64,000 nucleotides of DNA from Hyphomonadaceae bacterium (GCA_041398225.1 JAWKVD010000016.1:11177-75176), one strand, 5' to 3'. Numbered from the stretch's first letter, positions 1 through 18,813 are shown. Numbers and translations are program-made. Notes: a model not told the origin generated them from the letters alone.

Positions 1-3000
1 AATCAAAATCGGCCCACGATACGAGAGCTGAAGGATTTTTGACTCGCGTTCGGCGCGTCGCATTTTTGAGCACTCCACACTTTGGGTCGGACACAGCTGC
101 GCTCGCAAATGCGATCTCGTGGCTGACCCGGCCTCGTGAAACGCTTACTGGCCTTTCGAGAAACGACCCTAACCTGCGCGGACTAAACACCTGGTTTCGG
201 CGCTACGCCGAGGAAGCAAAACTAGAAGCGTGCATTCTTCGCGAAACGAAGCCGATGAAGAACGGCTTTTTCATCGTAAAGCCCGACAGCGCCGATCCCG
301 GCCTCTCACCTGCTACCGACGTAATCCCCGTCGATGAAGACCATGATTCCATTCGGTCCCCTAAAGACAGGCAGGCCGAAGTTTATCGACACGTACTCGC
401 ATTCGTCCGAAAGCCGTTTGTTCGCGCTCACCCCGCTGCTTCAAGAGACGAATGTCTGGCGTCAATAGCGACCGGAGTGTCGGACCTTCAGACGCAACAG
501 AAGGAACTGGTCCAGGCCCTGGCGCTGCACTCATCTGGCAATGGCGTTGTGACTCAGGAAGCCGAGCGGCGGCTGTGGCAAATCCGCCGGTCGCGATACA
601 TCAATGGCTACGACGCCAAAGCAGAGGCCACTCGTCTGCTCAATGACATCCAGAACGGCGAGCTTTCGACCGCCGCTCGTGACACTCGCCGCAAAATCTT
701 CGCATGGTGCGCCAGACTTCTTGCTGGCCTTGATCACTCTGTCGCAGAGGGCGCCTACAAGGAGGCGCAAGCCCTGGGAGCCGGTGAAGAGAACATCTTG
801 GCCGAGGCTTTCCTGCTGGTCTTCGGGAAAGCTGACAAGGCCTCCGCGCTGGCCAAAGTGAGTTCGATAGATACGAAGTCGGCAAGAACTGCGGCATTTC
901 TCATCGCTGCAAACGGCGTGACGCCGGAAGAGGCCGTGCAGTGGCTCAACAACGCAAACCTCCAATCTTCGGATTTGGATCCCGATGGAAAGTTGCAGCT
1001 GTTGCAGCGCCGCCTGCAGATGAAAGACTGGGGCACCGCCCTTGCTGACGTTCTGACATTCGGACTCGATGACTATGACGCCGCGCCAGGACTCTTAACG
1101 TTGGCAGGAATGACGCATCTTGTGCAGGCGGTTCCCAGTGACTTCAGAGAAGCGATCACGTTCCACCTTCCAACCGATTTGAGCGATTTCCCGCTGAGCA
1201 CGGATGGGTCCTCGCGAGCGTACCTGGAGACGGCGCAACCGTTGTTCAAAAATGCCGCGACTTCGTTGGGACAGCTTGGGTTGGACCAAGCATCCGGAGT
1301 TGCTGCGGACTACGCGTTGTGGCTGGACCTTCGAAATCCCGGATCGACTGCACAGGCTCGGAAGGAGCTGGAATCGAGTCTGTCTGATCCAAAACTCCGG
1401 TTGCGCCGCGTTCCGATGGCCCTGGACTTCCGTTTGAAGCTGGATCGCGCAGCGGTAGAGCGCGAAATTGACGCCGAGACTGCCCGAACAGGAGGAAAAT
1501 CACGGGACGCCGCGGCCGCACGCTTGGCGATGGCCATGAGCAGGAAGGACGCCATGGAAACCGCTCGTGATATTGCGCTTCATCGCAAGCAGCTGGTTGA
1601 GTACTATTCGCCTCAATACATCGAAGCAGTTGAGGTGGAAGTTCTCGCCCGCTCCGGGCAGGTGAATGAAGCTCGCTCGAAACTAGCAGCCATCGATGTG
1701 TCCGTGATGCCGCCCGAAACGCTCAAAACATTGGCGCGGGTCATCGAAGAGGTGAGCGGCGCCGACCCAACCATCGTTAGAGAAGCTGAATACCTCGCCT
1801 CCAAAAAACTGATTGATCTCATTCATCTCGTAGATGCGCTCAAAGGCCGGAACGCTCACGCGAAGCTAGCCGAGTACGGCAAGCTATTGTTCGACGAAAC
1901 TCACTCGCTGGCCCATGCCGTCCTTTACGCCAACGCGCTCTATGAAGAGGGGCGGGATCGTGATGTCATCGAGTTGGTTGAAGCTTACCCAGACCTCCTG
2001 GCGACCTCATCCGAACTGGAAACCATCGCCGCTTGGTCGTACTACCGACTAGGCAATCTCGCACAGGCTAAAACCTTGCTTAGCAAGCTGCAGCTTTCGC
2101 ATGATTTGACTGGTGACCGACACTTGCAGATCAACATCGCGATTGCATCAGGCGATTGGAGCAGCCTTGGCACGATAGTCGAGACGGAGTGGACGCGGCG
2201 CGATACTCGCAGTGCAAAGGAATTGCTGCGAGCAGGTCAGATCGCTCAACACATCGGCGCTTCTGGTCGATCACAAGAGCTGGTGAGAGCGGCGGCAGCC
2301 AAAGCGAACGGCGATCCTGCCGTACTCGTGGGCTGCTATTCAATGGCAGCGTCCGGCGGTTGGGAAGATGACGCAGCGATCCATGAGTGGCTCAATGTCG
2401 CCGCAGAAGCCTCTGGAGAAAACGGCCCCATTCAGAAGCTGAATCTTGGCCAGCTTGTGAAGATGCAGCCAAAGCATCGCGAGAGGCAAGAGGAGATTTG
2501 GCAGTCTTTGATCACAGCTTCGTTGCCGCTCTTTGTGGCCGCCAAAGGTCTTAATCGGACTCTGGTCGATCTCATTGTGGTCCCTGCCCTTGTGAATCAG
2601 CGCTCTGAAGACCCAAGGCAACGCGGATTGATCTTTACGTATAGCGGAGCAAGGCCGATTGTCCCGCTTCCAGGCAAGCGCCTTGCCTTCGACGTTACCT
2701 CCATTCTGACGTTGGCCATACTCGGCTTGTTGCGCAAAACCATTGCCGCGCAAGACACTGTGTTCATCTCTCACACGACATTGGGCTGGCTCTTCGAGGA
2801 ACGCCAAAAACTGGAGTTTCATCAACCCAGCCAGGTCAGAGAGGCTGCAGAGACAAAACGTTTGATCGACAGCGGCCACCTTCATAGATTTGACGGAACC
2901 AGCGGCTCTCAAGAACTGGAACAGCAGTTTGGCGACGACATCGCTCGCTATCTTGTAGCGGCGCAAGCGGCAGACCCTTCCAATCCAAACCAAAAGCTGA

Positions 3001-4217
3001 TTGTCCGGCCTTACCCGCTTCCCAAGCCCGAATCTCTCCTAGAGGAGATCGCTGACACCACGCAGCATGAGAACTTTTTTGTGGGATGCTTGGATGTCGT
3101 TACGGCTCTTCGTAAGCTCGGTCGAATTACAGCCGCTGAGGAAGAGCAGGCCACGGCCTATCTCGCCCTTCACGAGAAACCGTGGCCTCACACGCCGATA
3201 GTAAATTCGGGCGCTACGCTCTTCCTTGATGATCTGGCGGCTGCATACTTCCAACACGTCAAACTACTGGATCGGCTGAAGTCTGCGGGATTCAACGTCT
3301 TCATCTCCGACTCATTTGCTAAGCACGGCGACGCCTTGATCAGGCACGACGTAACCAGCGCAGAAGCCAAGAGGCTGGTGGAGGAAATTCGGTCAGCTCT
3401 CGAGGAGGGGCTTTCCTCCGGGAAGGTCCAGTTAATCCCCTTGGGACGTGAGACGGACGACGCCGACGAAAAGCAACTCGCGCACCATCCAACAATGGGA
3501 ATTTTCCGGGCTGATGTGGATGCCATCGTTATCGACGATAGATCGCTGAACCAAAACTCGCACCTGCCCTCCGAGGCCGGGACTAAAGCCACTGCTACGA
3601 CCGTGGACATTCTGGTTTCCATGCGTAGCTCCGGTGTGCTTTCAGCATCGGAGTTGGCTCAGGCGCTTACGGTGCTGCGAGATTCTGGATTCGTATTTGT
3701 TCCGACTCTTCCTGGGCAGCTTCTCGAGCTCGTAAGCACCACCACCGTTGACGGCGGTATGTTGCAAGAGCCTGCGGAACTGAGAGCAATTCGGGAGTCT
3801 ATTCTTCGCATTCGTATGACTGATGCGCTTCAGCATCCCAGCGAGAGCAACTGGATTGACAGTATGCTCCGTGAATTCGTCGACGTTATTCGCGCTCAGT
3901 GGACCGACGAAGTTCCTGACGACGTCGCAAGGGCGCGAAGCAACTGGATGCTGCGACAGTTTGATTTGCGGGGCTGGGCGCATCGCAACGGCCAGGACAA
4001 ACGGAGTCCTCTCGACCGATATCGAGCGCAGGTGGGGATGCTCTTGATGCTGCCGAAATCGTCAGCAGCGGCAAAAAAAAGGTATTGGGAATGGCTTGAT
4101 GACGCTGTTCTTGTCAGGCTCGAAGAGGAGCAACCCGATGAATATCAGAAGCTGATCGACATGCTGGAAGAGGTGATCACCCGGGGAACGGATGAGATGC
4201 CGAAGTTCGAGGATTAG
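1..4217 (+). CDS. Giant multidomain protein, 5'-partial (>=1404 aa in window): tail of an alpha/beta-hydrolase (DUF676/PGAP1/SERAC1-like lipase fold) domain, a long helical/TPR-like repeat region, and a large C-terminal domain of unknown function
   Basis: The track ORF 39..4217 begins at a TTG. The same frame (codons from nt 3: tca aaa tcg gcc cac gat acg aga gct gaa gga ttt) has no stop back to nt 1, so the gene continues upstream of the window. AFLSTPHFGS and VDEDHDSIRSP resemble the 'GTPHxGS' and Asp/His segments of DUF676/PGAP1-type hydrolases (recalled motifs, not searched). No Walker A motif was seen. Stop TAG 4215-4217 abuts the next ATG. Confidence 0.7.
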   Translation, partial: SKSAHDTRAEGFLTRVRRVAFLSTPHFGSDTAALANAISWLTRPRETLTGLSRNDPNLRGLNTWFRRYAEEAKLEACILRETKPMKNGFFIVKPDSADPGLSPATDVIPVDEDHDSIRSPKDRQAEVYRHVLAFVRKPFVRAHPAASRDECLASIATGVSDLQTQQKELVQALALHSSGNGVVTQEAERRLWQIRRSRYINGYDAKAEATRLLNDIQNGELSTAARDTRRKIFAWCARLLAGLDHSVAEGAYKEAQALGAGEENILAEAFLLVFGKADKASALAKVSSIDTKSARTAAFLIAANGVTPEEAVQWLNNANLQSSDLDPDGKLQLLQRRLQMKDWGTALADVLTFGLDDYDAAPGLLTLAGMTHLVQAVPSDFREAITFHLPTDLSDFPLSTDGSSRAYLETAQPLFKNAATSLGQLGLDQASGVAADYALWLDLRNPGSTAQARKELESSLSDPKLRLRRVPMALDFRLKLDRAAVEREIDAETARTGGKSRDAAAARLAMAMSRKDAMETARDIALHRKQLVEYYSPQYIEAVEVEVLARSGQVNEARSKLAAIDVSVMPPETLKTLARVIEEVSGADPTIVREAEYLASKKLIDLIHLVDALKGRNAHAKLAEYGKLLFDETHSLAHAVLYANALYEEGRDRDVIELVEAYPDLLATSSELETIAAWSYYRLGNLAQAKTLLSKLQLSHDLTGDRHLQINIAIASGDWSSLGTIVETEWTRRDTRSAKELLRAGQIAQHIGASGRSQELVRAAAAKANGDPAVLVGCYSMAASGGWEDDAAIHEWLNVAAEASGENGPIQKLNLGQLVKMQPKHRERQEEIWQSLITASLPLFVAAKGLNRTLVDLIVVPALVNQRSEDPRQRGLIFTYSGARPIVPLPGKRLAFDVTSILTLAILGLLRKTIAAQDTVFISHTTLGWLFEERQKLEFHQPSQVREAAETKRLIDSGHLHRFDGTSGSQELEQQFGDDIARYLVAAQAADPSNPNQKLIVRPYPLPKPESLLEEIADTTQHENFFVGCLDVVTALRKLGRITAAEEEQATAYLALHEKPWPHTPIVNSGATLFLDDLAAAYFQHVKLLDRLKSAGFNVFISDSFAKHGDALIRHDVTSAEAKRLVEEIRSALEEGLSSGKVQLIPLGRETDDADEKQLAHHPTMGIFRADVDAIVIDDRSLNQNSHLPSEAGTKATATTVDILVSMRSSGVLSASELAQALTVLRDSGFVFVPTLPGQLLELVSTTTVDGGMLQEPAELRAIRESILRIRMTDALQHPSESNWIDSMLREFVDVIRAQWTDEVPDDVARARSNWMLRQFDLRGWAHRNGQDKRSPLDRYRAQVGMLLMLPKSSAAAKKRYWEWLDDAVLVRLEEEQPDEYQKLIDMLEEVITRGTDEMPKFED

Positions 4218-6176
4218 ATGACGGAAGAGGAAGAGATAGAGCGGGAGGTCGCCCGTAACCTGCTCACGATGTTCCCGCCCTCGATACGTCGTTCAGTTTT
4301 CGGGTCACGCGCATTCCAAGACAAGTATAAATTCGCGTCCGATGCGACGCTCTCGTTCAGCGGCAGTGATATTTCGATCAACCGGTCCGACTTCTTTCCT
4401 GCCGTGCGCGCGCTTTATAGCGGGGGCGCACGAGTGGACCTAAAGACCGCAGATGGGCGAGCGGCACATCTCGAAGTCGAGCCGGACGCTCATGATGGAC
4501 GGCTTCGACTGACGGTCGAAAGCGAATCCGCCTCTCTGCCCTCGTTCTGGTTTTTTTCGCCAGACGCTGATATGCGCCTTCGCGAATTTGACCGAGAGGT
4601 TTCTCAGCGCACTCTACCCGCCTCCATCGTTTCTAATTGGAGAACCCGCTTTGCTGAATCCGCGCTCTCGGATCGCGAAGCGCAGGATCTCCATGAGGTC
4701 TTTGCGGATGACCCGCGAGAGGTCGAAACGGCAATTGGAAACGAACTGCACAAGGAAGAAGCCAATCTCCGTGTGCTCGTTCCACGCTCAATGGAATATT
4801 ACCACCGGCTACTCGGCGACTTTCAAGAATCCACCGGCGTCGACGCGTATCTCAACACAACCGCACCGTCACATTTCAACCATCTTCTCCAGGCGCAGCC
4901 TCATCGCGCGTTGCTGCTCTGTCTTCAGCTGTGCGCCCATCAATCGATGGCGCCGCTGTTGACACTCCCAGAGTGGCCAGCCGCCGAAGTCGAACAGTTC
5001 TTTGAGCAACTTGAAAGTTCAGGCGACCGTTTCTCTCAAGTGGCTGGTTACGAGGTGGGAGTGCGCGCACTTACTCGCTATCCCGGCCTTGAGCCTATCC
5101 TGCTACGCATCGTCAAAGCGCTACGGGACGAGGATGCCCGCGGTAAGAACGGTCGTCTGGCGTTGAGCGCTGGTCTTTTCATTTTCGTCGACGGCGAGTT
5201 GTCCAGGATCAGCCTCTTCAAAGGATACACTCCTTTTATCCGCCGCCTTGCAGCGATCGCCCATGCTGCCGTCATCGAGCGAAAAATGATCGAGCTAGGC
5301 GTTTCGCTCGAAGGCGCTGCTGACTGGGCTATGCAGGGCCGAGGACAAGACTTCTTCATGCAGTCGCTGGCCGATCTTCGAATCGAGCCACGCTGGTTGC
5401 CGGACTTGATGACGGCTGAGCAACTGAAGAACGAGTTCCTGAGCCGCATCCACATCGCGTCGGATCACGCAAAGGAGCAAATCCCGGCAGGCGACTTGCG
5501 CCAGCTAGTTGTCGAGGAAGGCCCTGAGAGCATCAAGGCCCGTCTAGCAATGCCATTTGCGTTTCTACCCGGCCCACTGGAAGGAGGAGCGACGGCACCC
5601 GCACCCTTCCCGCAAGACATGCTCGACGAACTCAAGGAGCCAACGGAGAAGAAGGTACTGGAGGCCCGGTTCTTCGCTGGCGTGGTCAATCTTGCTCTCG
5701 TGTTTCGACTCGAAAAGGACGTAGGGCTCCTAATTGGCGAGATACTGCGCGCGGCGAAGTATCGTCTGAGCGTCGGAGGCGAATCCGGAGTCACGTTCTC
5801 GTTGCTGGCCGGTCTCGCGATCATTGCAGCCGTTACTCGCACCGCCAGCCTGGCCGATGACATCCGTGTTCTGGTGCGCGTCCTCCGAGCCCGAGGAGAT
5901 TTTGATGCTGAGCCTGATAGCCAGCTGCGCATCGGCTTAATCGCAAGCGCTGCACATCAAGACGTACCCGGTTGGTGCAAGGCAGTCGGAGACTGGTTCA
6001 TCGAGCTATCGTACGAACCCATGGATAGAGCGACTGCCCAAGGGTTACGTCATCACTTGCGCAAGCTCTGCCAAGCTGTTCCAGATCTGTGGCCGTACGT
6101 TTCAAAGGCAGACGCAGCATTAGCTGCCGTCGTCGGATCTCATCACGCCAGACCAAGCGAAGCGAGCAAAACATAG
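4218..6176 (+). CDS. Hypothetical 652-aa protein with no recognisable motif; translationally coupled partner of the giant protein
   Basis: ATG 4218 immediately follows the upstream TAG. A GAGGA Shine-Dalgarno sequence lies at 4209-4213, inside the end of the upstream gene. It is a long uninterrupted ORF with plausible amino-acid composition. Confidence 0.65.
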   Translation: MTEEEEIEREVARNLLTMFPPSIRRSVFGSRAFQDKYKFASDATLSFSGSDISINRSDFFPAVRALYSGGARVDLKTADGRAAHLEVEPDAHDGRLRLTVESESASLPSFWFFSPDADMRLREFDREVSQRTLPASIVSNWRTRFAESALSDREAQDLHEVFADDPREVETAIGNELHKEEANLRVLVPRSMEYYHRLLGDFQESTGVDAYLNTTAPSHFNHLLQAQPHRALLLCLQLCAHQSMAPLLTLPEWPAAEVEQFFEQLESSGDRFSQVAGYEVGVRALTRYPGLEPILLRIVKALRDEDARGKNGRLALSAGLFIFVDGELSRISLFKGYTPFIRRLAAIAHAAVIERKMIELGVSLEGAADWAMQGRGQDFFMQSLADLRIEPRWLPDLMTAEQLKNEFLSRIHIASDHAKEQIPAGDLRQLVVEEGPESIKARLAMPFAFLPGPLEGGATAPAPFPQDMLDELKEPTEKKVLEARFFAGVVNLALVFRLEKDVGLLIGEILRAAKYRLSVGGESGVTFSLLAGLAIIAAVTRTASLADDIRVLVRVLRARGDFDAEPDSQLRIGLIASAAHQDVPGWCKAVGDWFIELSYEPMDRATAQGLRHHLRKLCQAVPDLWPYVSKADAALAAVVGSHHARPSEASKT

Positions 6177-6625
6177 GTCCCATTCATCGCCACACAACGA
6201 GCACAACGCGCTGTAGGGAGCCCGCAGCGGTGGCAAATATCCAGAGAAGCCCCGCGTTGCCGCATGTTTGCGCCCCGCTCGCCATATCTCAGTGTGCCTG
6301 CAATGTGCCCAACAACACGCAAGCTACTGAAAACAACTGGCTATCCGCACTATCCATCTCGGCTGCCACTCACGCAATGAGATTGTTAGAGACGTCTGGT
6401 TACCGATTTTCGGATGCCGTTCCCCACATCGGTGGCCCGGGACATGACCTCGTAACCTTGCAGTACAACGTCCGCGTACCTATCAGGTGCAGGTCGGCCG
6501 AAAACTGCAGCGGCTCCTCCCAGAACACAACCGCGACAACGAGCGTGAAGTTGCCACCCAACGCGTGAGCAAAAAGTGTGGCTGGGAGCGATCCCGCTCG
6601 GCTTCACCGGAGAGAGTTCATCCCG

Positions 6626-7171
6626 ATGCCCACCAAAGCTCTAAAGGCAAAATCGACCGCCAAAATCTCGCGCGCCGTATCTGGCGACACGTCTTGTCCA
6701 GTTTTGCGGATCATGCGGGAGGTCGCCAGCTGTCGTCGACTACAAAGAACCTCCCGCCTGACGACAGCCATAGAAAAGCTGCCCCGCCGGCTCCAGAGCG
6801 AGATGACGCCGCAATACACGGCGCGGCTTATAGGCCGGAGAATTCGAGCGCTAGAAGCGCTCGCTCATCAACTTCAGCCAACCTCAAAACTCGGCGCCGC
6901 GTATCAGCTGTTGATCGCTTTGAACCTCGCGACCCTGGACGACTACATTGATGCGGCTGTCGACCCGGTTCGCCTAGGCGACGCCGATCGCCTGAGGGAG
7001 CAAGCGGACATGGTGAGACAAACAATTCTGAGCGCCTATCTGGCGTTACGAACCGGGCTTCACGACCGGGATCTCACTGAAGTCGAACGGCCTCACCTGC
7101 TCGAAGGTTGGAAACCCAGTAAGACAATCCAGGCCTTGATCGATGCAGAGACTGAACACACGCGGTCATAA
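6626..7171 (+). CDS. Hypothetical protein (about 181 aa)
   Basis: Internal ATG of track ORF 6578..7171, preceded by GGAGAG at 6609-6614. Helical-looking sequence with no recognised motif. Convergent with the recombinase gene. Confidence 0.3.
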   Translation: MPTKALKAKSTAKISRAVSGDTSCPVLRIMREVASCRRLQRTSRLTTAIEKLPRRLQSEMTPQYTARLIGRRIRALEALAHQLQPTSKLGAAYQLLIALNLATLDDYIDAAVDPVRLGDADRLREQADMVRQTILSAYLALRTGLHDRDLTEVERPHLLEGWKPSKTIQALIDAETEHTRS

Positions 7172-7210
7172 GGATATCGCCTAAGGCGCTTTCACGCCGG
7201 AGAGGCGTCG

Positions 7211-7242
7211 GATCCGTCCGTCCCGCGTTGGATGGACGGATC
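7211..7242 (+). terminator. 13-bp stem / 6-nt loop hairpin (GATCCGTCCGTCC-CGCGTT-GGATGGACGGATC, one G:U), preceded by a smaller hairpin ACGCC-GGAGA-GGCGT at 7193-7207
   Basis: Inverted repeat read directly from the sequence, 40 nt downstream of the 7171 stop and between convergent genes. No U-tract follows on either strand, so it is not a canonical intrinsic terminator. Confidence 0.3.
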
Positions 7243-7408
7243 TGCCTGGACCGACCTCACCGCACGCGATGAGCCGCACCCCAGTATCTCACGCGACCGC
7301 CGCGCCCTCTTCAACACCGCCCTATTGCCGCCCTCGCCGCTGTGACGACTACCGCCCAAGTATCGGGGCGCAACCTGCAATTACCCGCGGTGAGAACCAA
7401 GGCGTTGC

Positions 7409-8989
7409 TTAAGAGCCTCGGAGCAGCGCCTGTTCCTGCTCCTTCCATACCTCCCCCGGCCTTTGGCTGATCAGCGATTGCGCGGTGATCTCCGGCGGCA
7501 GCCTGCCGTCGATGAGCGCCTCGACGATGCGCGGAGAGAGCAGCCCCAAATGGATGCGCTGGGTGAGAAAGGTCGGCTTCACACCTTCTGCGGCGGCAAG
7601 TTGGGTAATCGATGCACCAGCTTTCAGTCGCTCGACCCAACGGGTGGCGCGATGAACCAACTTGACGAGAACGATATCAGGTTCGACCGGCTTGTTCGCG
7701 TCGAGAACGATACGCTGTTCGACGCCGCGACGTCTTTGGGTAAACGACGCCTTGATGGTGAGATCCGCAGGGATCTCGGGGCGCCCGCCGCCAAACGCCT
7801 CGGAGGCGTCCCATTCGATCTGAAGGCATCCGGGAGCGACCTCGACGCGGCGCACGGCGTCGATAACCTGTGCGGCGGACAGCTCGTTCGCGGACCGGAC
7901 ACGCTGTTGAAGCCTCACGACAACCGGATCCGCAACGATCGCGTCCACGATCCGTTCCTCCAATTCCGGCGCCGGCAAGCGCCAGGCGCCCGGATCGTCC
8001 CCCTCCCCGGCGATCAATCGCTGAGAAACATAGTAGCGATAGCGCACGCCCTTTCGCGCCGAATGGGTCGGCAAGAGCTTGTCGCCCGTCTCATCGAACA
8101 GCTTGCCGGCGAGAGGACTGCGCGCCCGGGCGTTGGCGCGGCGACGACGAGCGACGCGCTGCGCCTCGAGCTGACGTTGCACGCCTTCGAACATGTCCGT
8201 CTCAAGGATGGGCTCGTGTAGGCCGTCATACAGTTTGTCGCGATGCCGGATACGGCCGATGTAGATGGGGTTGGACAGAAGGTGATACAGCGCACCGCGC
8301 CGAAAAGGCGCTCCACCCGCCCACGAGCCGCGCTTGCCCTCACGCGCCTTAGAACGCACGCCACGCCGGTTGAGATCTTCCATCACCATTCGGACGGAGC
8401 CCAGTTGCAGATAAAGCGCAAATATCTCCCGGACCGTCTGGGCTTCGCTCGAATTGACGACGAGGCCGCTCTCGGCGACATCGTAACCAAGCGGAGGCAA
8501 ACCGCCCATCCACATGCCCTTGGCCTTGGAGGCGGCGATCTTGTCGCGGATGCGCTCGCCGGTGACCTCGCGCTCGAACTGGGCAAACGACAACAACACA
8601 TTGAGGGTAAGCCGCCCCATGCTGGTGGAGGTGTTGAACTGCTGCGTCACGGAAACAAAGGAGACGTTGCGCGCCTCAAGACGCTCGACCAGCTTGGCGA
8701 AGTCGGCCAGCGATCGGGTCAGCCGATCGATCTTATAGACCACGATGAGATCGACCCGACCCGCATCGATGTCTACGAGCAAGCGATTGAGCGCAGGCCG
8801 TTCCAGCGTACCGCCGGAGAGGCCGCCATCGTCATAGGCGTCGGGCAAGACGCGCCAACCTTCGGACCGCTGGCTGCGCACGAACGCCTCGCATGCCTCA
8901 CGCTGGGCCTGCAGTGAGTTGAACGACTGATCGAGCCCCTCCTCCGAGGACTTGCGGGTGTAGATGGCGCAGCGGACCTGTCTCACCAA
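7409..8989 (-). CDS. Large serine recombinase (resolvase/invertase catalytic domain plus recombinase domain)
   Basis: N-terminus VRQVRCAIYTRKSS...DGGLSGGTLERPALNRLL...LIVVYKIDRLTRSL is the classical serine-recombinase catalytic domain. The 526-aa length is typical of large serine integrases. GTG start at 8989 with GAGGGGG 6 nt upstream. Confidence 0.9.
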   Translation of the reverse strand: MVRQVRCAIYTRKSSEEGLDQSFNSLQAQREACEAFVRSQRSEGWRVLPDAYDDGGLSGGTLERPALNRLLVDIDAGRVDLIVVYKIDRLTRSLADFAKLVERLEARNVSFVSVTQQFNTSTSMGRLTLNVLLSFAQFEREVTGERIRDKIAASKAKGMWMGGLPPLGYDVAESGLVVNSSEAQTVREIFALYLQLGSVRMVMEDLNRRGVRSKAREGKRGSWAGGAPFRRGALYHLLSNPIYIGRIRHRDKLYDGLHEPILETDMFEGVQRQLEAQRVARRRRANARARSPLAGKLFDETGDKLLPTHSARKGVRYRYYVSQRLIAGEGDDPGAWRLPAPELEERIVDAIVADPVVVRLQQRVRSANELSAAQVIDAVRRVEVAPGCLQIEWDASEAFGGGRPEIPADLTIKASFTQRRRGVEQRIVLDANKPVEPDIVLVKLVHRATRWVERLKAGASITQLAAAEGVKPTFLTQRIHLGLLSPRIVEALIDGRLPPEITAQSLISQRPGEVWKEQEQALLRGS

Positions 8990-9011
8990 CGCCCCCTCGC
9001 TGGACGTGCGA

Positions 9012-9404
9012 TCACGGCCGCAACCCGAAGAAACGCGGCCCGGACCATTTAACTCCGGTGATGGCCTCAGCGACGGCGCTCAACGAACGATAGCGCTGGC
9101 CGCGCCATTCGAAACCGCCGGCTACGACGTCAACGATATGCTGAACGCCGTTCCATTCACGCACCAGCTGGGCGCCGGACGCAACTGACCGAACGGCCTT
9201 TCCGGCCGCATGCTGCTCCAGACGCCGACGGAGCGCGGGCGTAAGCCCGCCCTCCGCCTGCGCCTGTCGTTCATAGGCGATCAGCTGGCGCATTAAGTGC
9301 TGACCGGTCTTGGCTGGCGGAGGCGCGCCGAACCGGCGCGCCCATTCAGCGACAAGGTCTTCCCGCGTCGCGCGCGTCAGATCAGAGAGGTCAGCCGCGC
9401 TCAT
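9012..9404 (-). CDS. DUF2924-family protein (typical companion of large serine recombinases)
   Basis: Internal ATG (MSAADLSDL...) of track ORF 9012..9548. The C-terminus LVREWNGVQHIVDVVAGGFEWRGQRYRSLSAVAEAITGVKWSGPRFFGL matches the recalled DUF2924 signature. The start overlaps the upstream gene's stop (ATGA, 9401-9404). Confidence 0.75.
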   Translation of the reverse strand: MSAADLSDLTRATREDLVAEWARRFGAPPPAKTGQHLMRQLIAYERQAQAEGGLTPALRRRLEQHAAGKAVRSVASGAQLVREWNGVQHIVDVVAGGFEWRGQRYRSLSAVAEAITGVKWSGPRFFGLRP

Positions 9405-9658
9405 TGCCGGGCGCGACGTTTGCGACCGGCCGTTTCCGGCTTGAACCGGTAGATGGAGGGCTCGCCCGGCTCTCCGGCGATACGCTCGATGGGAACGCCC
9501 CGCTTGCGCAGGCCAGTGAGCGCCGCCCGCACCGAATGTGGGAGCCACCCCATGGCTGCGGCCAGCGTTTCGACGCTGGCGCCCTCACCTTTGAGATGTT
9601 CGAGGAATTCCGCTTGTCGCGTGCCGGCCTTGACTGCAGTGATGGGTATGGACGTCAT
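9401..9658 (-). CDS. DUF3489-family small protein (winged-helix-like)
   Basis: Internal ATG (MTSIPITAVK...) of track ORF 9401..9703. TRQAEFLEHLKGEGASVETLAAAMGWLPHSVRAALTGLRKRG matches the recalled DUF3489 pattern. Confidence 0.7.
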   Translation of the reverse strand: MTSIPITAVKAGTRQAEFLEHLKGEGASVETLAAAMGWLPHSVRAALTGLRKRGVPIERIAGEPGEPSIYRFKPETAGRKRRARQ

Positions 9659-9869
9659 GATTTGCCTCCAGTTGACGAACGACGAACCAATCCGTCGTCC
9701 CACTGGCGCAAGCCCGGATCAGCCGGGCTCCATGCTCTATCGTCCGGCAAGGCGCAACGTCCGCCCATTCCCGACATTGCGCAGACGATGAGTCTCAGCG
9801 TCAAACTCCAATGGCCATGCATGAGGCGGCCAGTCAACTGGAAAGAAAGCCATCTTTGCCGTGTACCGA

Positions 9870-11348
9870 CTAGAATATGCGCCCATGATCATTGCGTGAT
9901 TGGCGCGGACGCCGAGGCGGGCGTTGGCCGCGACTTGATGCGATCTGCTCAGGCATCCAGGCACCATGGGCCCATCTCACAAATTGGCTGATCGTGTCGA
10001 CGATGTCGTCATGACGCGCCGACGGGAAACCCACGACTTCGCGGTGCAGATCATCAAACCCAGGCGCATTGCGGGCAAACTCGAACTTGTCTCCGTACAG
10101 TTGATCCAGCGCGATACCAAACCGCTCCGCCTTGCCGAGATCGGTGTTAGCCCACCTCACGTTGAAGTTTTCTCGCCGCAGATCGAAGCCCAAAGCCGGA
10201 CCGACATTGGCGTATTCGATGACGAGGAGTTCTGCGCGCTGCTGGCGGGCGTGGGCGATCAACGTCGATTTAAGATCCGGATATTCGCACCGAAGCCGCA
10301 GAACGTGCGCCAATCGCCAGTTCGTTCCGTTGTAGGCCCATGTTGTGACGGCGCTATAGTCTGAGGTCGTGCTTGCACTGACGGCGGTGTCGATGCTCTG
10401 AGCGACGAATACTGTGTCCTCCTGAGCGAGCACCTTATCGACGATGCGGAGACGGCTCCAATCCGCCATCTGACCGCCGGATATTTGAGGGTCGAGGAGG
10501 TACTGCGCGTTGAACACCGTCGGCGTGAGCTCAAGCCTCAATCGATCCAGCTCGACCTGAGGAAACCTGGTCGGCGACAGAAGTTCGCCCTCCCGCCAAG
10601 CCCATTCGCGTTCGAGGTAGAGCGGCGACACGACATCACGATCGGCGATCGAGGGAAAGTTGAGGTGACGATACTGCCCGCCTTCAATCAGCTCCGAAAC
10701 GAAGTCGTCTATGTGCAGGCGTTGTTGGACCGCGATCACACGACTTGACCTCGGATCGTTGAACCGCGTCATCGCCGTGCTGCGATAGAAGTCCTCCACC
10801 TGTTCGCGCATCGTTGCCGAAACGACGTCGCCCGCTTTTATCAGGTCGTCCAGGACAAGGATGTCCACACCAATTCCGGTAAACGTTCCGCCTACGGTGA
10901 CATAGCGAACAAAGCCGCCCGCCGGTGAGCGGAACTGATCTGCATGCCGCGTCACCTCAAGGCCGTCAAACAGGACGCGATATAGGTTCGATTGAACAAC
11001 CCGCTCCAGTAGTCCTGCATGCTCCCTCGCCAATCCCTGAGAATAGACGGCGACCGCAATCTTGAGCCTAGGGTCGTGTCCGAGCGCAAAGGCCGGCAAC
11101 ATAACAGCGGCGCAGAAGGATTTCAGATGACGCGGCGGCATGGTGACCAGAAGCCGACGCTCCTCCTGATTGAAGACCTGCTGCAGGGCGAAGCAATAGG
11201 CTTCCACGTAGGGCTCCCTGACGAGGCGCTCGCCGCCATTGAGCATCTCGAAGAACACCGCCACGAACATATCGAGGCGCGCCCGCAACAGCCCACCGTT
11301 GCGGAGCATCTGCTCCGGCGCTTGAGATCCTAAAAAGCTATCCGTCAC
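9870..11348 (-). CDS. Phage terminase large subunit-like protein
   Basis: TMPPRHLKSF (variant Walker A of the terminase PRxxGKS type), DILVLDDLIKAGD (Walker B), and a C-terminal nuclease-like half ending ...SARHDDIVDT. The GTG start overlaps the stop of the upstream gene (GTGA at 11345-11348). Confidence 0.8.
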   Translation of the reverse strand: MTDSFLGSQAPEQMLRNGGLLRARLDMFVAVFFEMLNGGERLVREPYVEAYCFALQQVFNQEERRLLVTMPPRHLKSFCAAVMLPAFALGHDPRLKIAVAVYSQGLAREHAGLLERVVQSNLYRVLFDGLEVTRHADQFRSPAGGFVRYVTVGGTFTGIGVDILVLDDLIKAGDVVSATMREQVEDFYRSTAMTRFNDPRSSRVIAVQQRLHIDDFVSELIEGGQYRHLNFPSIADRDVVSPLYLEREWAWREGELLSPTRFPQVELDRLRLELTPTVFNAQYLLDPQISGGQMADWSRLRIVDKVLAQEDTVFVAQSIDTAVSASTTSDYSAVTTWAYNGTNWRLAHVLRLRCEYPDLKSTLIAHARQQRAELLVIEYANVGPALGFDLRRENFNVRWANTDLGKAERFGIALDQLYGDKFEFARNAPGFDDLHREVVGFPSARHDDIVDTISQFVRWAHGAWMPEQIASSRGQRPPRRPRQSRNDHGRIF

Positions 11349-11845
11349 CTATCCTCTCCACCCGGTTCATCTTCGCCTGTAGTCTCACGTTGGCCCGCAG
11401 CCTCACGCATCTGCTGCTCGTATTCGGCGTACAGCTGGTCCATAAGCTCCGTGTCGTAGAGGGCCGCTATCTCCTGTCCGTCTTGCGTCCGCGCGTCGCG
11501 CGCCTTGATGCAATCGAACACCGCCTTGCGCGCGCGGTGATCACCGCGAATGGCGTCGTTCACCGTACCTCTGATCACGGCCTCCTCCTTCGTGACGAGC
11601 ATTTCCCTGCCGCCAATCGTGATCGGAATTTTTTCCTCGAGCTCCTTCTCCAGCGTGTGGCGCGCCTCAACCTTTTTGGGCCACCCCGTCAAGTTGCGCC
11701 GATTGTCAGCCATTCCCTGCCCAAACTGCGTTTTGCGCGATCCCGGCGACCGACCGCGCATGTCCGGCTTGCCGGACTTTGTCCGACGCTGCACGTTGCT
11801 GCTAGGAGTAGATCGCTTTGCCATACCCGCCTCCTTAGTGCTCAC
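11345..11845 (-). CDS. DUF5681-like protein in the small-terminase position
   Basis: Basic N-terminus followed by IPITIGGREMLVTKEEAVIRGTVNDAIRGDHRARKAVFDCI, which resembles the recalled DUF5681 pattern. Located immediately upstream of the large terminase and overlapping it. Confidence 0.55.
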   Translation of the reverse strand: MSTKEAGMAKRSTPSSNVQRRTKSGKPDMRGRSPGSRKTQFGQGMADNRRNLTGWPKKVEARHTLEKELEEKIPITIGGREMLVTKEEAVIRGTVNDAIRGDHRARKAVFDCIKARDARTQDGQEIAALYDTELMDQLYAEYEQQMREAAGQRETTGEDEPGGEDR

Positions 11846-13295
11846 CGTTGGGCCGCGGACGCGGGCGACGACGCGGAGACTGGGGCTTGGCCTGAACGTC
11901 GGAGCGCTGCTGGCCGGTCGATCGGCGCCGCTCGATCAGGTCTTCGAAGGTCAATCCCGTCTCGACATGAATGGCTGCGCGGTCGAACTCACGCTGGTAA
12001 CGGCGCAACATCGTCTCAACATATCCGGGACTAATCTCGATTATACGGGCGAAGCGCCCCGTGCGCTGGGCGGCGATCAACGTCGTGCCGGACCCACCGA
12101 ACAGATCCAGCACCAGATCCTTGCGCTTGGTGCAGTCCAAAATAACGTCCGCGATCAGCGCCGTCGGCTTGACGGTCGGATGCATGGCAAGATCGCTGTC
12201 CCGCGTACGACCGAAGGCGTTGGCGCCAGCGTATTCCCAGACGTTCGTGCGATTGCGACCGAACCGCCCCAATTGGACGTTGTTTCGGTGCTGCGCGCCT
12301 GGCTTGCGGAAAACGCCGACGAGTTCGTGTTGGCTCCGATAAAAGGACCCCATGCCTGAGTTGGACTTCACGAAAACCGCGATATTGATGAGCTCCAGGC
12401 CAATCTCATGAGCAGCGGTCAACAACAGGCGTACGCTTCGCCAATCGATGAAAAAATAAACCAGTGCGCCGGGCGAAGCCGCAGCCTTCGCTATCTCAAG
12501 TCCCTGCTCGAGAAACGCCACGAACTGCTCGTCTGACATTTCTCCACTCGCCATTGCGAATTCCGAATGGCGGCGCCCGTTCCTGCATAAGACATGTCCG
12601 TTGACGGGAACGTTGTAAGGCGGGTCCGTAATGATCGCTGCAACTTCACCGGGAACGCAAATTTGGGAGATGGCGCTCGGATCAAGCGCATCACCACAGA
12701 ACACTTCATGGCCGTCGATCTCGAACTTATCGCCAAGCTGAAGTAGGCTATCGGAAGGCGGATCAGAAGGCGTTTCCTCACCGCCCATTGTACCGGGGTA
12801 CAAAATGAGATCCGCTTCCGCGACCTCAAATCCGAGCGCGTCGAAGCCGATGTCGAGATCCTCGGCGAGCACGAAAACATCGCGCAGCGCCTCTTCATCC
12901 CACGCCCCCAACTCAGCGAGCCGGTTGTCGGCCACCCGGTAGACCTCCAGCTCTTCGCGGGAGAGGTGCATTACCCGAATAGCCGGCAAAGTCTTCAGCC
13001 CAAGACGACGGGCGGCCAGGACCCGCGCAACACCGCAGACAACGTTTTCGTCGGCGTCGAGCACGATCGGCACGACCGGCCCGAACCGTTCGAGGGAGGC
13101 GGCCAGGCACTGGATTTTCCGCTCGGAGTGCCTCCGAACCTGACGGTTTGGCAGCTTAGCTCGAGCAAGGTCGAAATTCTCTGGGACCCGCCCTCTTTCC
13201 TGCGCGTCGCTCGACGCAGAACGCCTACGGTTTGCCTTCGCCATACCTTCACCTCGCACGCCTTTCTTGCCTCGCCCCCTAGGAAGCGAGATCAT
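11835..13295 (-). CDS. ParB-like nuclease domain fused to an N6/N4 DNA methyltransferase
   Basis: The N-terminal part (ERFGPVVPIVLDADENVVCGVARVLAARRLGLKTLPAI...ADNRL) is ParB/Srx-like. IITDPPYNVP is the DPPY catalytic motif, and LVLDLFGGSGTTLIAA is the SAM-binding motif. The true start may be the internal ATG at 13244. Confidence 0.85.
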   Translation of the reverse strand: MISLPRGRGKKGVRGEGMAKANRRRSASSDAQERGRVPENFDLARAKLPNRQVRRHSERKIQCLAASLERFGPVVPIVLDADENVVCGVARVLAARRLGLKTLPAIRVMHLSREELEVYRVADNRLAELGAWDEEALRDVFVLAEDLDIGFDALGFEVAEADLILYPGTMGGEETPSDPPSDSLLQLGDKFEIDGHEVFCGDALDPSAISQICVPGEVAAIITDPPYNVPVNGHVLCRNGRRHSEFAMASGEMSDEQFVAFLEQGLEIAKAAASPGALVYFFIDWRSVRLLLTAAHEIGLELINIAVFVKSNSGMGSFYRSQHELVGVFRKPGAQHRNNVQLGRFGRNRTNVWEYAGANAFGRTRDSDLAMHPTVKPTALIADVILDCTKRKDLVLDLFGGSGTTLIAAQRTGRFARIIEISPGYVETMLRRYQREFDRAAIHVETGLTFEDLIERRRSTGQQRSDVQAKPQSPRRRPRPRPNGEH

Positions 13296-15427: not shown

Positions 15428-16003
15428 CTATGGCGCCACCCCAAGCTTCAGCAACGTCGCCGTGTCCATATAACCGGTCTGTGGCAATGCGTGGTCTGCT
15501 TGATAAGCGCGCAAGGCCGCTTGCGTCTTTGTATTCAGCACGCCCGTCATCGGCCCAGGATCATAGCCTTTCGCATAGAGCGCCAACTGCACCATCTTGA
15601 TCTTCTCAGCTAGCTCGGTGGTGGTAAGCGCTCGCCCGCTGTTTGACGGCGTCCTTGGCGTGAGTAACGGCTGAGCTGGCGATGTGGAGGGCGCCGGTGG
15701 CGGTGGCGGTGGCGGCGGGGAGTACGCTGGCGCAGTATAGCTACCCCCAGATCCAGAATAGTGTGAGCTATGCGACCTATGACTGGAGTGACTTCTGTGG
15801 CTGGAGTGACTTCGGTGTTGAGCAAGCTGTAAAAGCGCCCCTCGGCTACGAGGATCGCTGAACACCGAAAGATCCTCCGTGTGATCCGAACCGGCGAGCC
15901 CTAGATCGTTGCTCGGCGCCGCCAACGCCTCCGGCGTCACTGCGAGTAAACTCGCACTGGTCGTCAGCCCGAATAGACTCGTAAGTCGTTCACGCCACCC
16001 CAT
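15428..16003 (-). CDS. hxsA: His-Xaa-Ser repeat protein (HxsA-like): signal peptide, (H-x-S)x6, poly-Pro linker, C-terminal peptidoglycan-binding (PG_binding_1-like) domain
   Basis: Start ATG at 16003 with GGAGGAGG 9 nt upstream (internal start of track ORF 15428..16090). Contains HRSHSSHRSHSSHRSHSSH, then SPPPPPPPPAP, then MVQLALYAKGYDPGPMTGVLNTKTQAALRAYQADHALPQTGYMDTATLLKLG. Overlaps the hxsC stop by 14 nt. Confidence 0.75.
   Translation of the reverse strand: MGWRERLTSLFGLTTSASLLAVTPEALAAPSNDLGLAGSDHTEDLSVFSDPRSRGALLQLAQHRSHSSHRSHSSHRSHSSHYSGSGGSYTAPAYSPPPPPPPPAPSTSPAQPLLTPRTPSNSGRALTTTELAEKIKMVQLALYAKGYDPGPMTGVLNTKTQAALRAYQADHALPQTGYMDTATLLKLGVAP
15761..15817 (-). repeat. Coding tandem repeat: 19 codons, H-R-S-H-S-S x3 plus H
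   Basis: The minus strand reads CAC CGA AGT CAC TCC AGC / CAC AGA AGT CAC TCC AGT / CAT AGG TCG CAT AGC TCA / CAC. The three 18-nt units use different synonymous codons. Confidence 0.9.
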
Positions 16004-18613: not shown

Positions 18614-18813
18614 ATACCGGCATTCCCTCAGAGTCTTTTCACGGCTTGAAACTGCATGCGCCCCCCCGTTCCCAGAGGCGTACATTGATACAAATGGCTC
18701 ACAAGGTCCAGATTTCCGTATCGGAAGCTGTCTCGTATCCCAAGGGATGCGGTCTCCGATCAAGCGCATACCCACCTTCTATCGACGTCAATCCCCAATG
18801 CGAAAATGACGAA

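What the first reader, a model, noticed from the sequence alone, without database searches (positions are those of the whole stretch)
1..6176. Giant hydrolase/helical-repeat protein plus a coupled 652-aa unknown partner: candidate uncharacterised two-gene conflict (defence or toxin) module
Seen in the sequence:
- The first gene is open to nt 1, so at least 1404 aa are visible and more lies upstream.
- Its visible N-terminus (AFLSTPHFGS ... VDEDHDSIRSP) looks like the C-terminal half of a DUF676/PGAP1/SERAC1-type lipase-fold domain, including the Asp/His part of a triad.
- About 700 aa of helical/TPR-like repeats follow.
- A C-terminal region of about 550 aa follows, with recurring strand-Asp patterns (RLAFDVTSILTLAILGLL, ATLFLDDLAAAYF, AIVIDDRSLN). 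These remind me weakly of PIN-like or other Asp-dependent nuclease folds.
- No P-loop is present.
- The partner gene starts on the nucleotide after the stop, with its Shine-Dalgarno sequence inside the first gene. It has no motif I recognise.
- Both genes look more A/T-rich in codon usage than the catabolic genes further right. They sit next to a serine-recombinase/terminase module.

Inference: size, domain logic (enzyme head, repeat scaffold, possible effector tail), tight coupling to an unknown partner and a mobile-element neighbourhood are the hallmarks of phage-defence or other conflict systems. I cannot place the pair in any named system.
Basis: partly seen in the sequence, partly recalled or inferred. 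Interest (0 to 1): 0.7.

Follow-up and report, generated by a model that had tools for sequence, protein, structure and literature searches.

The report
Split TPR–PIN–Gre-like conflict gene pair
The two genes are real and tightly coupled, but they are not unplaceable: they are a two-gene version of the predicted anti-phage "TPR–GreA/B-C–PIN" system, with an esterase head, two PIN RNase domains and a partner carrying a rearranged RNA-polymerase-binding-like domain, and this version has never been tested in the lab.

Summary
Gene 1 (nt 3-4217) is open at nt 1. Its full product is 1533 aa (Hyphomonadaceae MAG, R3C52_10435). Gene 2 (4218-6176, 652 aa) starts on the base after gene 1's TAG.

- The head is a DUF676-type Ser-Asp-His esterase.
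- The C-terminal "strand-Asp" motifs are the catalytic Asp positions of two PIN domains.

The claim that the pair fits no named system is wrong. Pfam places gene 1 in HTH_upstream_double_PIN (PF24407) and PIN-TPR-GreABC (PF20698). It places gene 2 in Permuted_GreAB-C (PF24388). The pair is therefore a split relative of the TPR-GreA/B-C-PIN ("TGP") conflict system (Kaur et al. 2021). One member of that system, E. coli Agp/Bab, protects against phage T5.

- All 10 distinct loci with an intact or IS-split gene 1 have gene 2 directly downstream.
- 17 of the top 150 family representatives are collinear fusions of the two genes.
- The N-terminal head is swapped among at least 8 types.
- Genomic contexts vary and are often mobile or defence-rich.

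The likely mechanism is inferred, not shown: RNA-polymerase-linked sensing, PIN RNA cleavage, and an esterase as suicide effector. My own tests of Gre homology were inconclusive.

Verdict: a new member of a known, untested kind. Interest is moderate.

The parts
1..4217 (+). Gene 1, truncated at its 5' end by the window edge. It encodes residues 130-1533 of a 1533-aa protein (P0106, R3C52_10435).
3..425 (+). C-terminal part of the DUF676-type α/β-hydrolase (esterase/lipase) head. It holds the conserved D227 (nt 294-296) and the invariant H243 (nt 342-344). The nucleophile S115 in GYSLGG lies upstream of the window.
426..2432 (+). Presumed helical/TPR-like scaffold of about 670 aa. Only sub-threshold TPR matches were found, and it was not modelled.
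2448..2654 (+). HTH domain (Pfam PF24407, HTH_upstream_double_PIN, E 6.5e-23). N994, D999, R1001 and R1003 are invariant.
2661..3203 (+). PIN-like domain 1. Conserved acidic positions are D1026 (nt 2691), E1061, D1147 and D1160.
3204..3650 (+). PIN domain 2, the best Pfam PF20698 match. Conserved acidic positions are D1205 (nt 3228), E1256, D1307/D1308 (nt 3534-3539, invariant) and D1331.
3651..4214 (+). Conserved Trp-rich helical C-terminal domain of unknown role. In fused homologues it lies directly before the gene 2 region.
4209..4220 (+). Gene junction: GAGGA (4209-4213), TAG (4215-4217) and ATG (4218-4220), all in one reading frame.
4218..6176 (+). Gene 2, 652 aa (P0001, R3C52_10440).
4347..4538 (+). 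Small α+β domain of gene 2 (residues 44-107, strand order β-β-α-β-β-β-β), containing the Pfam PF24388 Permuted_GreAB-C match at residues 50-90.
4566..6149 (+). All-α solenoid of gene 2 (residues 117-644) with an invariant LPGPLEG loop at residues 450-456. No significant structural relative in the PDB.

Best explanation
The pair is a two-gene (split) member of the TPR-GreA/B-C-PIN ('TGP') class of prokaryotic counter-invader systems.

Gene 1 contains, in order:
- an exchangeable N-terminal effector head, here a DUF676-type Ser-Asp-His esterase/lipase;
- a long helical/TPR-like scaffold;
- an HTH domain;
- two PIN ribonuclease-type domains with conserved acidic residues;
- a helical tail.

Gene 2 is translationally coupled to it. 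It supplies a small α+β domain of the Pfam 'Permuted GreAB-C' family, followed by a 530-aa α-solenoid. The two products work as one machine.

Proposed mechanism (inferred by analogy with the published TGP model):
1. The gene 2 subunit docks on RNA polymerase through the Gre-like domain and reports phage take-over of transcription.
2. The tandem PIN domains, helped by the HTH, cut the invader's transcripts.
3. If that fails, the esterase head is released as a suicide (abortive-infection) effector, probably acting on membrane lipids.

Shown here: domain memberships, residue conservation, obligate adjacency, fusions, head swapping and a mobile, patchy distribution. Inferred only: polymerase binding, RNA cleavage, the esterase substrate and any anti-phage phenotype.
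For: - **Family membership.**
  - PF24407 scores 81 bits and PF20698 58.6 bits in gene 1.
  - PF24388 scores 28 bits in gene 2 and matches 34 of 42 family members, best E 1.4e-12.
- **Conserved catalytic-type residues.**
  - Head: S115, D227 and H243.
  - PIN1: D1026, E1061, D1147 and D1160.
  - PIN2: D1205, E1256, D1307/1308 and D1331.
  - In the high-confidence model (pLDDT 89.1) these residues sit at β-strand ends and helix starts.
- **Adjacency.** Gene 2 follows gene 1, abutting it or overlapping by 1-14 nt (one gene call shows 44 nt), in Rhizobium, Comamonas, Mesorhizobium, Martelella, Agrobacterium and Methylophaga plasmids, and in three metagenomic contigs.
- **Fusions.** 17 of the top 150 representatives are collinear gene 1-gene 2 fusions. 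Pfam confirmed four of them.
- **Head swapping.** 77 proteins carry 8 head types, including α/β-hydrolase, HNH, Mrr and PNPase. The published TGP system shows the same effector-head logic (PMC8195603).
- **Context of related loci.** Neighbours include a Dcm/Vsr/EcoRII restriction-modification system, AbiEi/AbiEii, a SIR2+AAA pair, integrases, relaxases and IS elements.
- **Signs of recent acquisition and loss.** GC3 is low. One locus is disrupted by an IS and another has decayed.
- **Experimental precedent.** The canonical TGP protein Agp, together with Bab, protects E. coli from T5. Mutations in its GreA/B-C domain abolish protection.
Against: - No experiment exists for this split, double-PIN variant.
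- The Gre relationship of the gene 2 domain rests only on the Pfam family's name.
  - My profile search against PDB sequences found no Gre protein.
  - hhalign against the GreA/GreB/Gfh1 C-terminal domains gave E = 0.1 and probability below 1%.
- Whole-chain Foldseek found no PIN or Gre structure for either model. The queries are multi-domain, so this is a weak negative.
- PADLOC has no model for the system. Its only match is a model that covers the esterase head.
- In this window no recognised defence system lies next to the pair.
- One related locus sits among housekeeping genes.
- This gene 2 has Ala where 30 of 42 relatives have a conserved Trp in the Gre-like domain.
Confidence: 0.62

Rival explanations
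1. The pair is a conflict system of the same general logic but is not linked to RNA polymerase. The 'permuted GreAB-C' label is a misattribution. The gene 2 α-solenoid and the gene 1 TPR scaffold instead recognise a phage protein or nucleic acid directly, in the way NTPase-free Avs/NLR-like sensors do. The PIN domains and the esterase would then be the effectors.
For: - My independent tests of Gre homology were not significant.
- Most of gene 2 is a repeat solenoid with no solved relative.
- TPR and solenoid sensors are common in defence proteins (established knowledge).
- This gene 2 lacks the family's conserved Trp in the small domain.
Against: - The small domain is the only named part of gene 2. 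It matches PF24388 in 34 of 42 relatives.
- Its secondary-structure order fits a Gre-C fold with the N-terminal hairpin moved to the end.
- The PIN domains belong to the family defined on proteins that carry a standard GreA/B-C domain (PMC8195603).
Confidence: 0.2
2. The pair is a toxin-antitoxin or addiction module. Gene 1 (PIN RNase plus esterase) is the toxin and gene 2 its protein antitoxin. The module would stabilise the mobile element or plasmid that carries it.
For: - PIN domains are the classic VapC toxins (established knowledge).
- The two genes are tightly translationally coupled.
- The pair occurs on conjugative plasmids and next to mobile-element genes.
Against: - The two genes are fused into one polypeptide in 17 representatives. 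This is hard to reconcile with a labile antitoxin.
- The sizes (1533 and 652 aa) and the swappable heads are unlike those of TA modules.
- In Robertmurraya gene 2 survives while gene 1 has decayed. That fits loss of a system, but it does not distinguish the two models strongly.
Confidence: 0.1
3. The pair is a housekeeping transcription or RNA quality-control factor: a Gre-like polymerase-rescue subunit working with an RNase.
For: - The Gre-like label on gene 2.
- One locus lies among translation genes for a release factor and a tRNA synthetase.
Against: - Distribution is patchy and the neighbourhood differs in every locus.
- GC3 is low compared with neighbouring genes.
- One locus is IS-disrupted and another has decayed.
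- The effector heads are exchangeable and include REase, HNH and PNPase types.
- Two instances are plasmid-borne.
Confidence: 0.04

Closest known systems
TPR-GreA/B-C-PIN ('TGP') conflict system (Kaur, Iyer, Burroughs & Aravind, eLife 2021, PMC8195603)
   Same: - A variable N-terminal effector head sits on a constant, fast-evolving core of TPR repeats plus a PIN domain of the same Pfam family (PF20698).
- A Gre-C-type domain is associated with the core.
- REase, HNH and PNPase heads are shared between the two.
- Both have a patchy, mobile distribution.
   Different: - The published archetype is one polypeptide in the order TPR-GreAB-C-PIN and is 'mostly standalone'.
- Here the order is TPR-HTH-PIN-PIN.
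- The Gre-like domain is circularly permuted (according to Pfam) and sits on a second, obligately linked 650-aa protein. In fusions it lies after the PINs.
- I found no α/β-hydrolase head, no HTH+PIN architecture and none of three species names from this family that I searched in the 2021 supplementary tables.
E. coli ECOR25 Bab/Agp (bioRxiv 10.1101/2024.11.07.622273)
   Same: - It is a two-gene system built around a TGP-class protein.
- It is experimentally anti-phage (T5) by abortive infection.
- Its Gre-C domain is needed for defence. A PIN active-site mutant also lost defence, but the mutant protein level was markedly reduced.
   Different: - The partner Bab is a 109-aa membrane-targeting Bell-domain protein activated by amyloid templating.
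- Here the partner is a 652-aa Gre-like/solenoid protein, and no amyloid motif was seen or tested.
- The executioner is presumably the esterase head fused to gene 1.
Pfam families PF24407 (HTH_upstream_double_PIN) and PF24388 (Permuted_GreAB-C)
   Same: Both window genes match these families above the curated cut-offs (81 and 28 bits). The families are named for exactly this architecture.
   Different: They are domain models only. I found no paper in the searchable library that describes the two-gene system, its fusions or its function.
VapC-type PIN toxins of toxin-antitoxin systems
   Same: They share the PIN fold class and a conserved set of acidic residues.
   Different: VapC toxins are small single-domain proteins with a small antitoxin. 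They have no scaffold, head or Gre-like partner.

Membership tests
TPR-GreA/B-C-PIN (TGP) system | PIN domain of the TGP-specific family (Pfam PF20698) | tested here: met
   Score of 58.6 bits against a cut-off of 27.8, in two stretches. Relatives match over either PIN1 or PIN2.
TPR-GreA/B-C-PIN (TGP) system | TPR repeat scaffold upstream of the nuclease | tested here: inconclusive
   Only sub-threshold TPR hits were found (ANAPC3 18.5 bits, TPR_6 16.1 bits). Several relatives carry weak TPR_19 or TPR_7 hits. The region was not modelled.
TPR-GreA/B-C-PIN (TGP) system | GreA/B-C domain in the same polypeptide, between the TPR and PIN regions | tested here: not met
   Gene 1 has no Gre-type match, and an HTH occupies that position. 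A 'permuted' Gre-C family domain is found on gene 2 instead, or after the PINs in fusions.
TPR-GreA/B-C-PIN (TGP) system | Variable N-terminal effector head on a constant core | tested here: met
   77 proteins carry 8 head clusters: DUF676/α/β-hydrolase, HNH, Mrr and PNPase, four unnamed clusters, and five proteins with no head.
TPR-GreA/B-C-PIN (TGP) system | Anti-phage activity | not testable with these tools
   Shown only for the canonical member Agp/Bab.
Pfam double-PIN / permuted-GreAB-C two-gene architecture | PF24407 HTH followed by tandem PIN domains | tested here: met
   PF24407 gives E 6.5e-23. Two β/α units each carry a conserved acidic set. hhalign of PIN1 against PIN2 aligns only the last motif (E 0.003), so the duplication is old or PIN1 is divergent.
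Pfam double-PIN / permuted-GreAB-C two-gene architecture | Partner with a PF24388 domain, linked to the PIN protein | tested here: met
   Score of 28.0 bits against a cut-off of 27, with 34 of 42 relatives matching. The partner is adjacent in 10 loci and fused in 17 representatives.
GreA/GreB C-terminal (FKBP-like) domain superfamily | Detectable sequence or profile similarity to GreA, GreB or Gfh1 C-terminal domains | tested here: inconclusive
   The profile search against PDB sequences found no Gre hit. hhalign gave E 0.1 and probability below 1%, although the best alignment puts the gene 2 R-S-x-L-F-x-A-V-R helix and hairpin on GreA 'SPIARGLIGK...VVVIKTPGGEVEFEV'.
GreA/GreB C-terminal (FKBP-like) domain superfamily | Binding to the RNA polymerase β' rim helices or secondary channel | not testable with these tools
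   Needs a pull-down or a structure.
PIN-domain nucleases | α/β/α fold with four acidic residues meeting at one site | tested here: inconclusive
   Alternating β-α elements and conserved D/E/D/D sets occur at the expected places. The model coordinates could not be inspected, and whole-chain Foldseek gave no PIN hit.
DUF676 / α/β-hydrolase serine esterases | GxSxG nucleophile elbow with downstream Asp and His | tested here: met
   - Pfam DUF676 scores 28.8 bits against a cut-off of 20.3.
- GYSLGG contains S115 (28/30); D227 is conserved in 29/30 and H243 in 30/30.
- The motifs align with esterase BlEst2, PDB 6WPX.
Type II toxin-antitoxin (VapBC-like) | Small PIN toxin with a small, separately encoded, labile antitoxin | tested here: not met
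   The proteins are 1533 and 652 aa, and the two are fused in 17 representatives.

The most novel reading that the evidence does not exclude
The split system is a transcription-surveillance immune machine of a kind not yet shown experimentally.
- A free-standing, circularly permuted Gre-like subunit occupies the RNA polymerase secondary channel of phage-hijacked polymerase.
- It recruits a tandem-PIN/HTH nuclease that destroys nascent invader RNA.
- A membrane-directed esterase acts as a second, suicidal layer.
- The split and fused states interconvert by a single in-frame stop codon, as seen at nt 4215-4217.
Probability: 0.25. Interest if true: 0.7.

Novelty: new member of a known kind. Interest (0 to 1): 0.38.

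Why it matters
TGP-class systems are proposed to detect phage by monitoring the host RNA polymerase. That sensing principle differs from sensing of nucleic acids or capsid proteins, and it has only one partly characterised example.

This family is large: about 1,500 clusters at 50% identity. The Gre-like module and the nuclease module are naturally separated onto two proteins, which makes the polymerase-docking and nuclease steps individually testable. The split and fused natural variants and the swappable heads give ready-made controls.

For annotation, the result converts two 'hypothetical proteins' into a nameable system that neither PADLOC v2 nor NCBIfam recognises as a system.

Tried and rejected
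- **Recovering the source contig.**
  - An exact-sequence look-up of gene 2 found nothing on record.
  - The single genome-contig scan returned only one partial Methylobacterium hit.
  - The full gene 1 sequence came from the protein search instead.
- **Whole-chain Foldseek against the PDB.** Both high-confidence models gave only generic α-solenoid hits, all with E > 0.01.
- **phmmer of the gene 1 C-terminal 594 aa against PDB sequences.** No hit.
- **Gene 2 β-domain profile against the PDB.** Only chance ubiquitin-like β-hairpin matches.
- **hhalign against Gre/Gfh1 C-terminal domains.** Not significant, even with a tandem-duplicated template to allow for permutation.
- **hhalign of PIN1 against PIN2.** Only the last helix motif aligned.
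- **Libraries with no system-level match.** PADLOC matched only a model over the esterase head. NCBIfam and PHROGs gave no match.
- **Literature searches for 'double PIN' and 'permuted Gre'.** Only irrelevant papers.
- **The ORF downstream of gene 2 (6578-7168).** No family match, and unrelated to the recombinase fragment downstream of the Rhizobium pair.
- **A complete prophage as the carrier.** Rejected. No structural phage genes lie to the right of the TerL module up to 29 kb, there are no tRNA genes, and gene 2 has no homologue in 50,697 phage records.

Full report
**1. What is in the sequence**

The frame starting at nt 3 is open from the window edge to TAG at 4215-4217, giving 1404 codons. 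ATG at 4218 opens a 652-codon gene that ends at 6176. GAGGA at 4209-4213 lies inside gene 1, four bases before that ATG. The two ORFs are in the same reading frame, so a single TAG separates them.

The window matches a Hyphomonadaceae MAG on a 103,404-bp contig. The database holds the exact gene 2 product (P0001, R3C52_10440) and the complete gene 1 product (P0106, R3C52_10435, 1533 aa). The window begins at residue 130 of P0106.

Neither protein has a Walker A motif. Both genes have lower G+C than the rest of the window: 0.564 and 0.576 against 0.612. Their GC3 is about 0.61, against 0.68-0.83 for most other genes.

**2. Domain content of gene 1**

Pfam finds three families above their curated cut-offs on the full protein:
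- DUF676 (putative serine esterase), residues 30-161.
- PF24407 'HTH_upstream_double_PIN', residues 945-1013, 81 bits.
- PF20698 'PIN domain associated with the TPR-GreAB-C-PIN system', 58 bits, in two stretches.

TPR matches between these regions are sub-threshold.

In a 30-sequence alignment of full-length relatives (33-52% identity), the following residues are conserved:

| Region | Conserved residues |
|---|---|
| Hydrolase head | S115 (GYSLGG, 28/30), D227 (29/30), H243 (30/30) |
| PIN1 | D1026 (D or E in 30/30), E1061, D1147, D1160 |
| PIN2 | D1205 (29/30), E1256, D1307 and D1308 (30/30), D1331 (29/30) |

The head motifs align with a solved Bacillus esterase, BlEst2 (6WPX), although weakly (E 0.004).

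An AlphaFold2 model of residues 940-1533 is confident (pLDDT 89.1, pTM 0.83). It shows a helical HTH region, two alternating β/α units and a helical tail. The conserved acidic residues sit at strand ends or helix starts, where PIN catalytic residues lie.

**3. Domain content of gene 2**

Pfam PF24388 'Permuted_GreAB-C' matches residues 50-90 just above its cut-off (28.0 against 27 bits). The call holds across the family: 34 of 42 relatives match, with a best E of 1.4e-12.

The model is confident (pLDDT 89.5, pTM 0.87). It has a small α+β domain (residues 44-107, order β-β-α-β-β-β-β) followed by an all-α solenoid (117-644). The solenoid has no significant PDB relative.

I tried to verify the Gre relationship independently and could not:
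- A profile of residues 36-116 found no Gre protein among PDB sequences.
- hhalign against GreA, GreB and two Gfh1 C-terminal domains gave E = 0.1 and probability below 1%. The Gre sequences came from PDB alignments.

The best alignment does place the conserved gene 2 helix (R56, S57, F60, R64) and the following hairpin on GreA's 'SPIARGLIGK...VVVIKTPGGEVEFEV'. The two extra C-terminal strands are what a relocated N-terminal hairpin would give. The topology is therefore compatible with the Pfam label, but the homology is not demonstrated here.

**4. The two genes form one unit**

Every locus I could read that encodes an intact or IS-split gene 1 relative has a gene 2 relative immediately downstream. 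tblastn confirmed this for L002-L005 and L008-L011. For the two plasmid loci it rests on Pfam matches and the tblastn search hits.

| Locus | Source |
|---|---|
| L002 | Rhizobium gallicum |
| L003 | metagenomic contig |
| L004/L005 | Comamonas koreensis |
| L008 | metagenomic contig |
| L009 | Mesorhizobium xinjiangense |
| L010 | Martelella soudanensis |
| L011 | metagenomic contig |
| L012 | Methylophaga thalassica plasmid |
| L013 | Agrobacterium fabrum conjugative plasmid pAtN33_94 |

With the window, that makes 10 distinct loci. Junctions abut or overlap by 1-14 nt, apart from one gene call of 44 nt.

In Robertmurraya (Bacillota) an intact gene 2 is preceded only by the last ~150 codons of gene 1, so that copy has decayed. 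In Martelella the DUF676 head is severed from the core by a DDE transposase.

An exhaustive profile search of 1.84 billion representatives found 1,507 clusters with E ≤ 1e-3, of which 873 have E ≤ 1e-30. Among the top 150 hits, 17 are proteins of 1,868-2,197 aa in which the gene 1 core and gene 2 are collinear in one chain. Pfam confirmed head-HTH-PIN in four of them, and PF24388 in two of those four. These natural fusions are strong evidence that the two products act together. They argue against an antitoxin role for gene 2.

**5. Swappable heads and variable context**

The segment N-terminal to the conserved core was compared across 77 gene-1-type proteins. It falls into 8 unrelated clusters:
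- α/β-hydrolase: 53 proteins.
- HNH-like: 9.
- Mrr-type restriction endonuclease: 3.
- Nucleoside phosphorylase: 2.
- Four unnamed clusters.

Five proteins have no head.

Neighbourhoods differ in every locus:
- A Dcm/Vsr/EcoRII system (L002).
- Relaxases, a coupling protein, ISL3 and a serine recombinase (L003).
- AbiEi/AbiEii and a PLD-like protein (L009).
- An integrase, SNF2 and NOV_C (L011).
- VapBC, an integrase, an HsdR-N protein and SIR2+AAA (L013).
- IS91 and DDE elements (L010).
- Siderophore uptake genes (L004).
- Translation genes (L008).

In the window the pair lies beside a large serine recombinase, DUF2924, TerL, DUF5681 and a ParB-methyltransferase. No phage structural genes follow, there are no tRNA genes, and PADLOC recognises no neighbouring system. 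Gene 2 has no homologue in 50,697 phage genomes. The pair therefore behaves as horizontally moving cargo rather than as a core gene, but this particular copy is not in a recognisable defence island.

**6. Comparison with what is known**

Kaur et al. [quoted passage not shown] It has a variable N-terminal effector (EAD10, REase, HNH, PNPase, TIR, SIR2, peptidases) fused to a constant TPR-GreA/B-C-PIN core, 'mostly standalone'. They proposed that the Gre-C domain engages the β' coiled coil at the RNA polymerase secondary channel, that the PIN cuts the extruded viral transcript, and that the head is a fallback suicide effector.

A 2024 preprint showed that the E. coli ECOR25 TGP protein Agp, with its partner Bab, protects against T5 by abortive infection. 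Gre-C point mutants lose defence. A PIN mutant also lost defence, but the mutant protein level was markedly reduced.

The window pair shares the PIN family, the head logic and a Gre-type label. It differs in four ways:
- An HTH occupies the place of Gre-C in gene 1.
- The PIN is duplicated.
- The Gre-like domain is permuted.
- That domain sits on a separate, obligately linked 650-aa protein, or after the PINs in fusions.

The 2021 supplementary tables contain no ABhydrolase+TPR, TPR+HTH, HTH+PIN or 'permuted' entries, and none of three species names from this family that I searched. I found no paper in the searchable library describing the two-gene form. Pfam nevertheless carries curated domain families named for exactly this architecture, so the variant is known to curators.

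**7. Verdict**

The best explanation is a split TGP-class conflict system (confidence 0.62). Membership of the Pfam-defined family is close to certain. A defence role is likely but untested. The polymerase-docking, PIN-cleavage and esterase-suicide mechanism is an analogy to the published model.

The main rival keeps the conflict role but drops the polymerase link (0.2). Toxin-antitoxin (0.1) and housekeeping (0.04) readings fit the fusions, head swapping and patchy distribution poorly.

Novelty: a new member of a known, computationally defined and experimentally untested kind. Interest: 0.38.

Noticed in passing
window 4215-4220: Gene 1 and gene 2 are in the same reading frame, separated only by one TAG. 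A single stop-to-sense change (or readthrough) would produce the fused form seen in 17 family representatives. Related loci instead overlap by 1-14 nt.
   Followed up: partly
window 7409-13295 (minus strand): A compact module of a large serine recombinase, DUF2924, a large terminase, DUF5681 and a ParB-N6/N4 methyltransferase. No phage structural genes were detected to the right, up to 29 kb. It is a remnant or an unusual mobile element rather than a complete prophage.
   Followed up: partly
window 15990-18775 (minus strand): Two adjacent, overlapping radical-SAM genes (400 and 532 aa) with GC3 of 0.58-0.61, as low as the TGP pair and unlike the rest of the window. PADLOC shows only weak, generic similarity to viperin models. 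This may be a second piece of foreign cargo.
   Followed up: partly
window 21200-21745 (minus strand): A 181-aa ORF matching phage and IS transposase families (phrog_157, E 5.6e-32). It is probably a transposase fragment, which fits a mosaic island covering the first ~22 kb.
   Followed up: no
L010 6058-11843 (Martelella soudanensis CP054861.1): The DUF676 head (a 219-aa ORF) is separated from the rest of the gene 1 homologue by a DDE_3 transposase. The system is inactivated by an IS, or has become headless.
   Followed up: partly
L006/L007 9523-11920 (Robertmurraya korlensis): A Bacillota genome holds an intact gene 2 homologue preceded only by the last ~150 codons of a gene 1 homologue. The system has crossed phyla and is decaying here.
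   Followed up: partly
window 4464-4466 (gene 2 residue 83): This gene 2 has Ala where 30 of 42 relatives have a conserved Trp in the Gre-like domain. The significance is unknown.
   Followed up: no
window 6177-7408: A 1.2-kb stretch between gene 2 and the recombinase contains only ORFs with no family match (for example 6578-7171, plus strand) and terminator-like hairpins on the minus strand at 6754-6803. No att site or tRNA was identified.
   Followed up: partly
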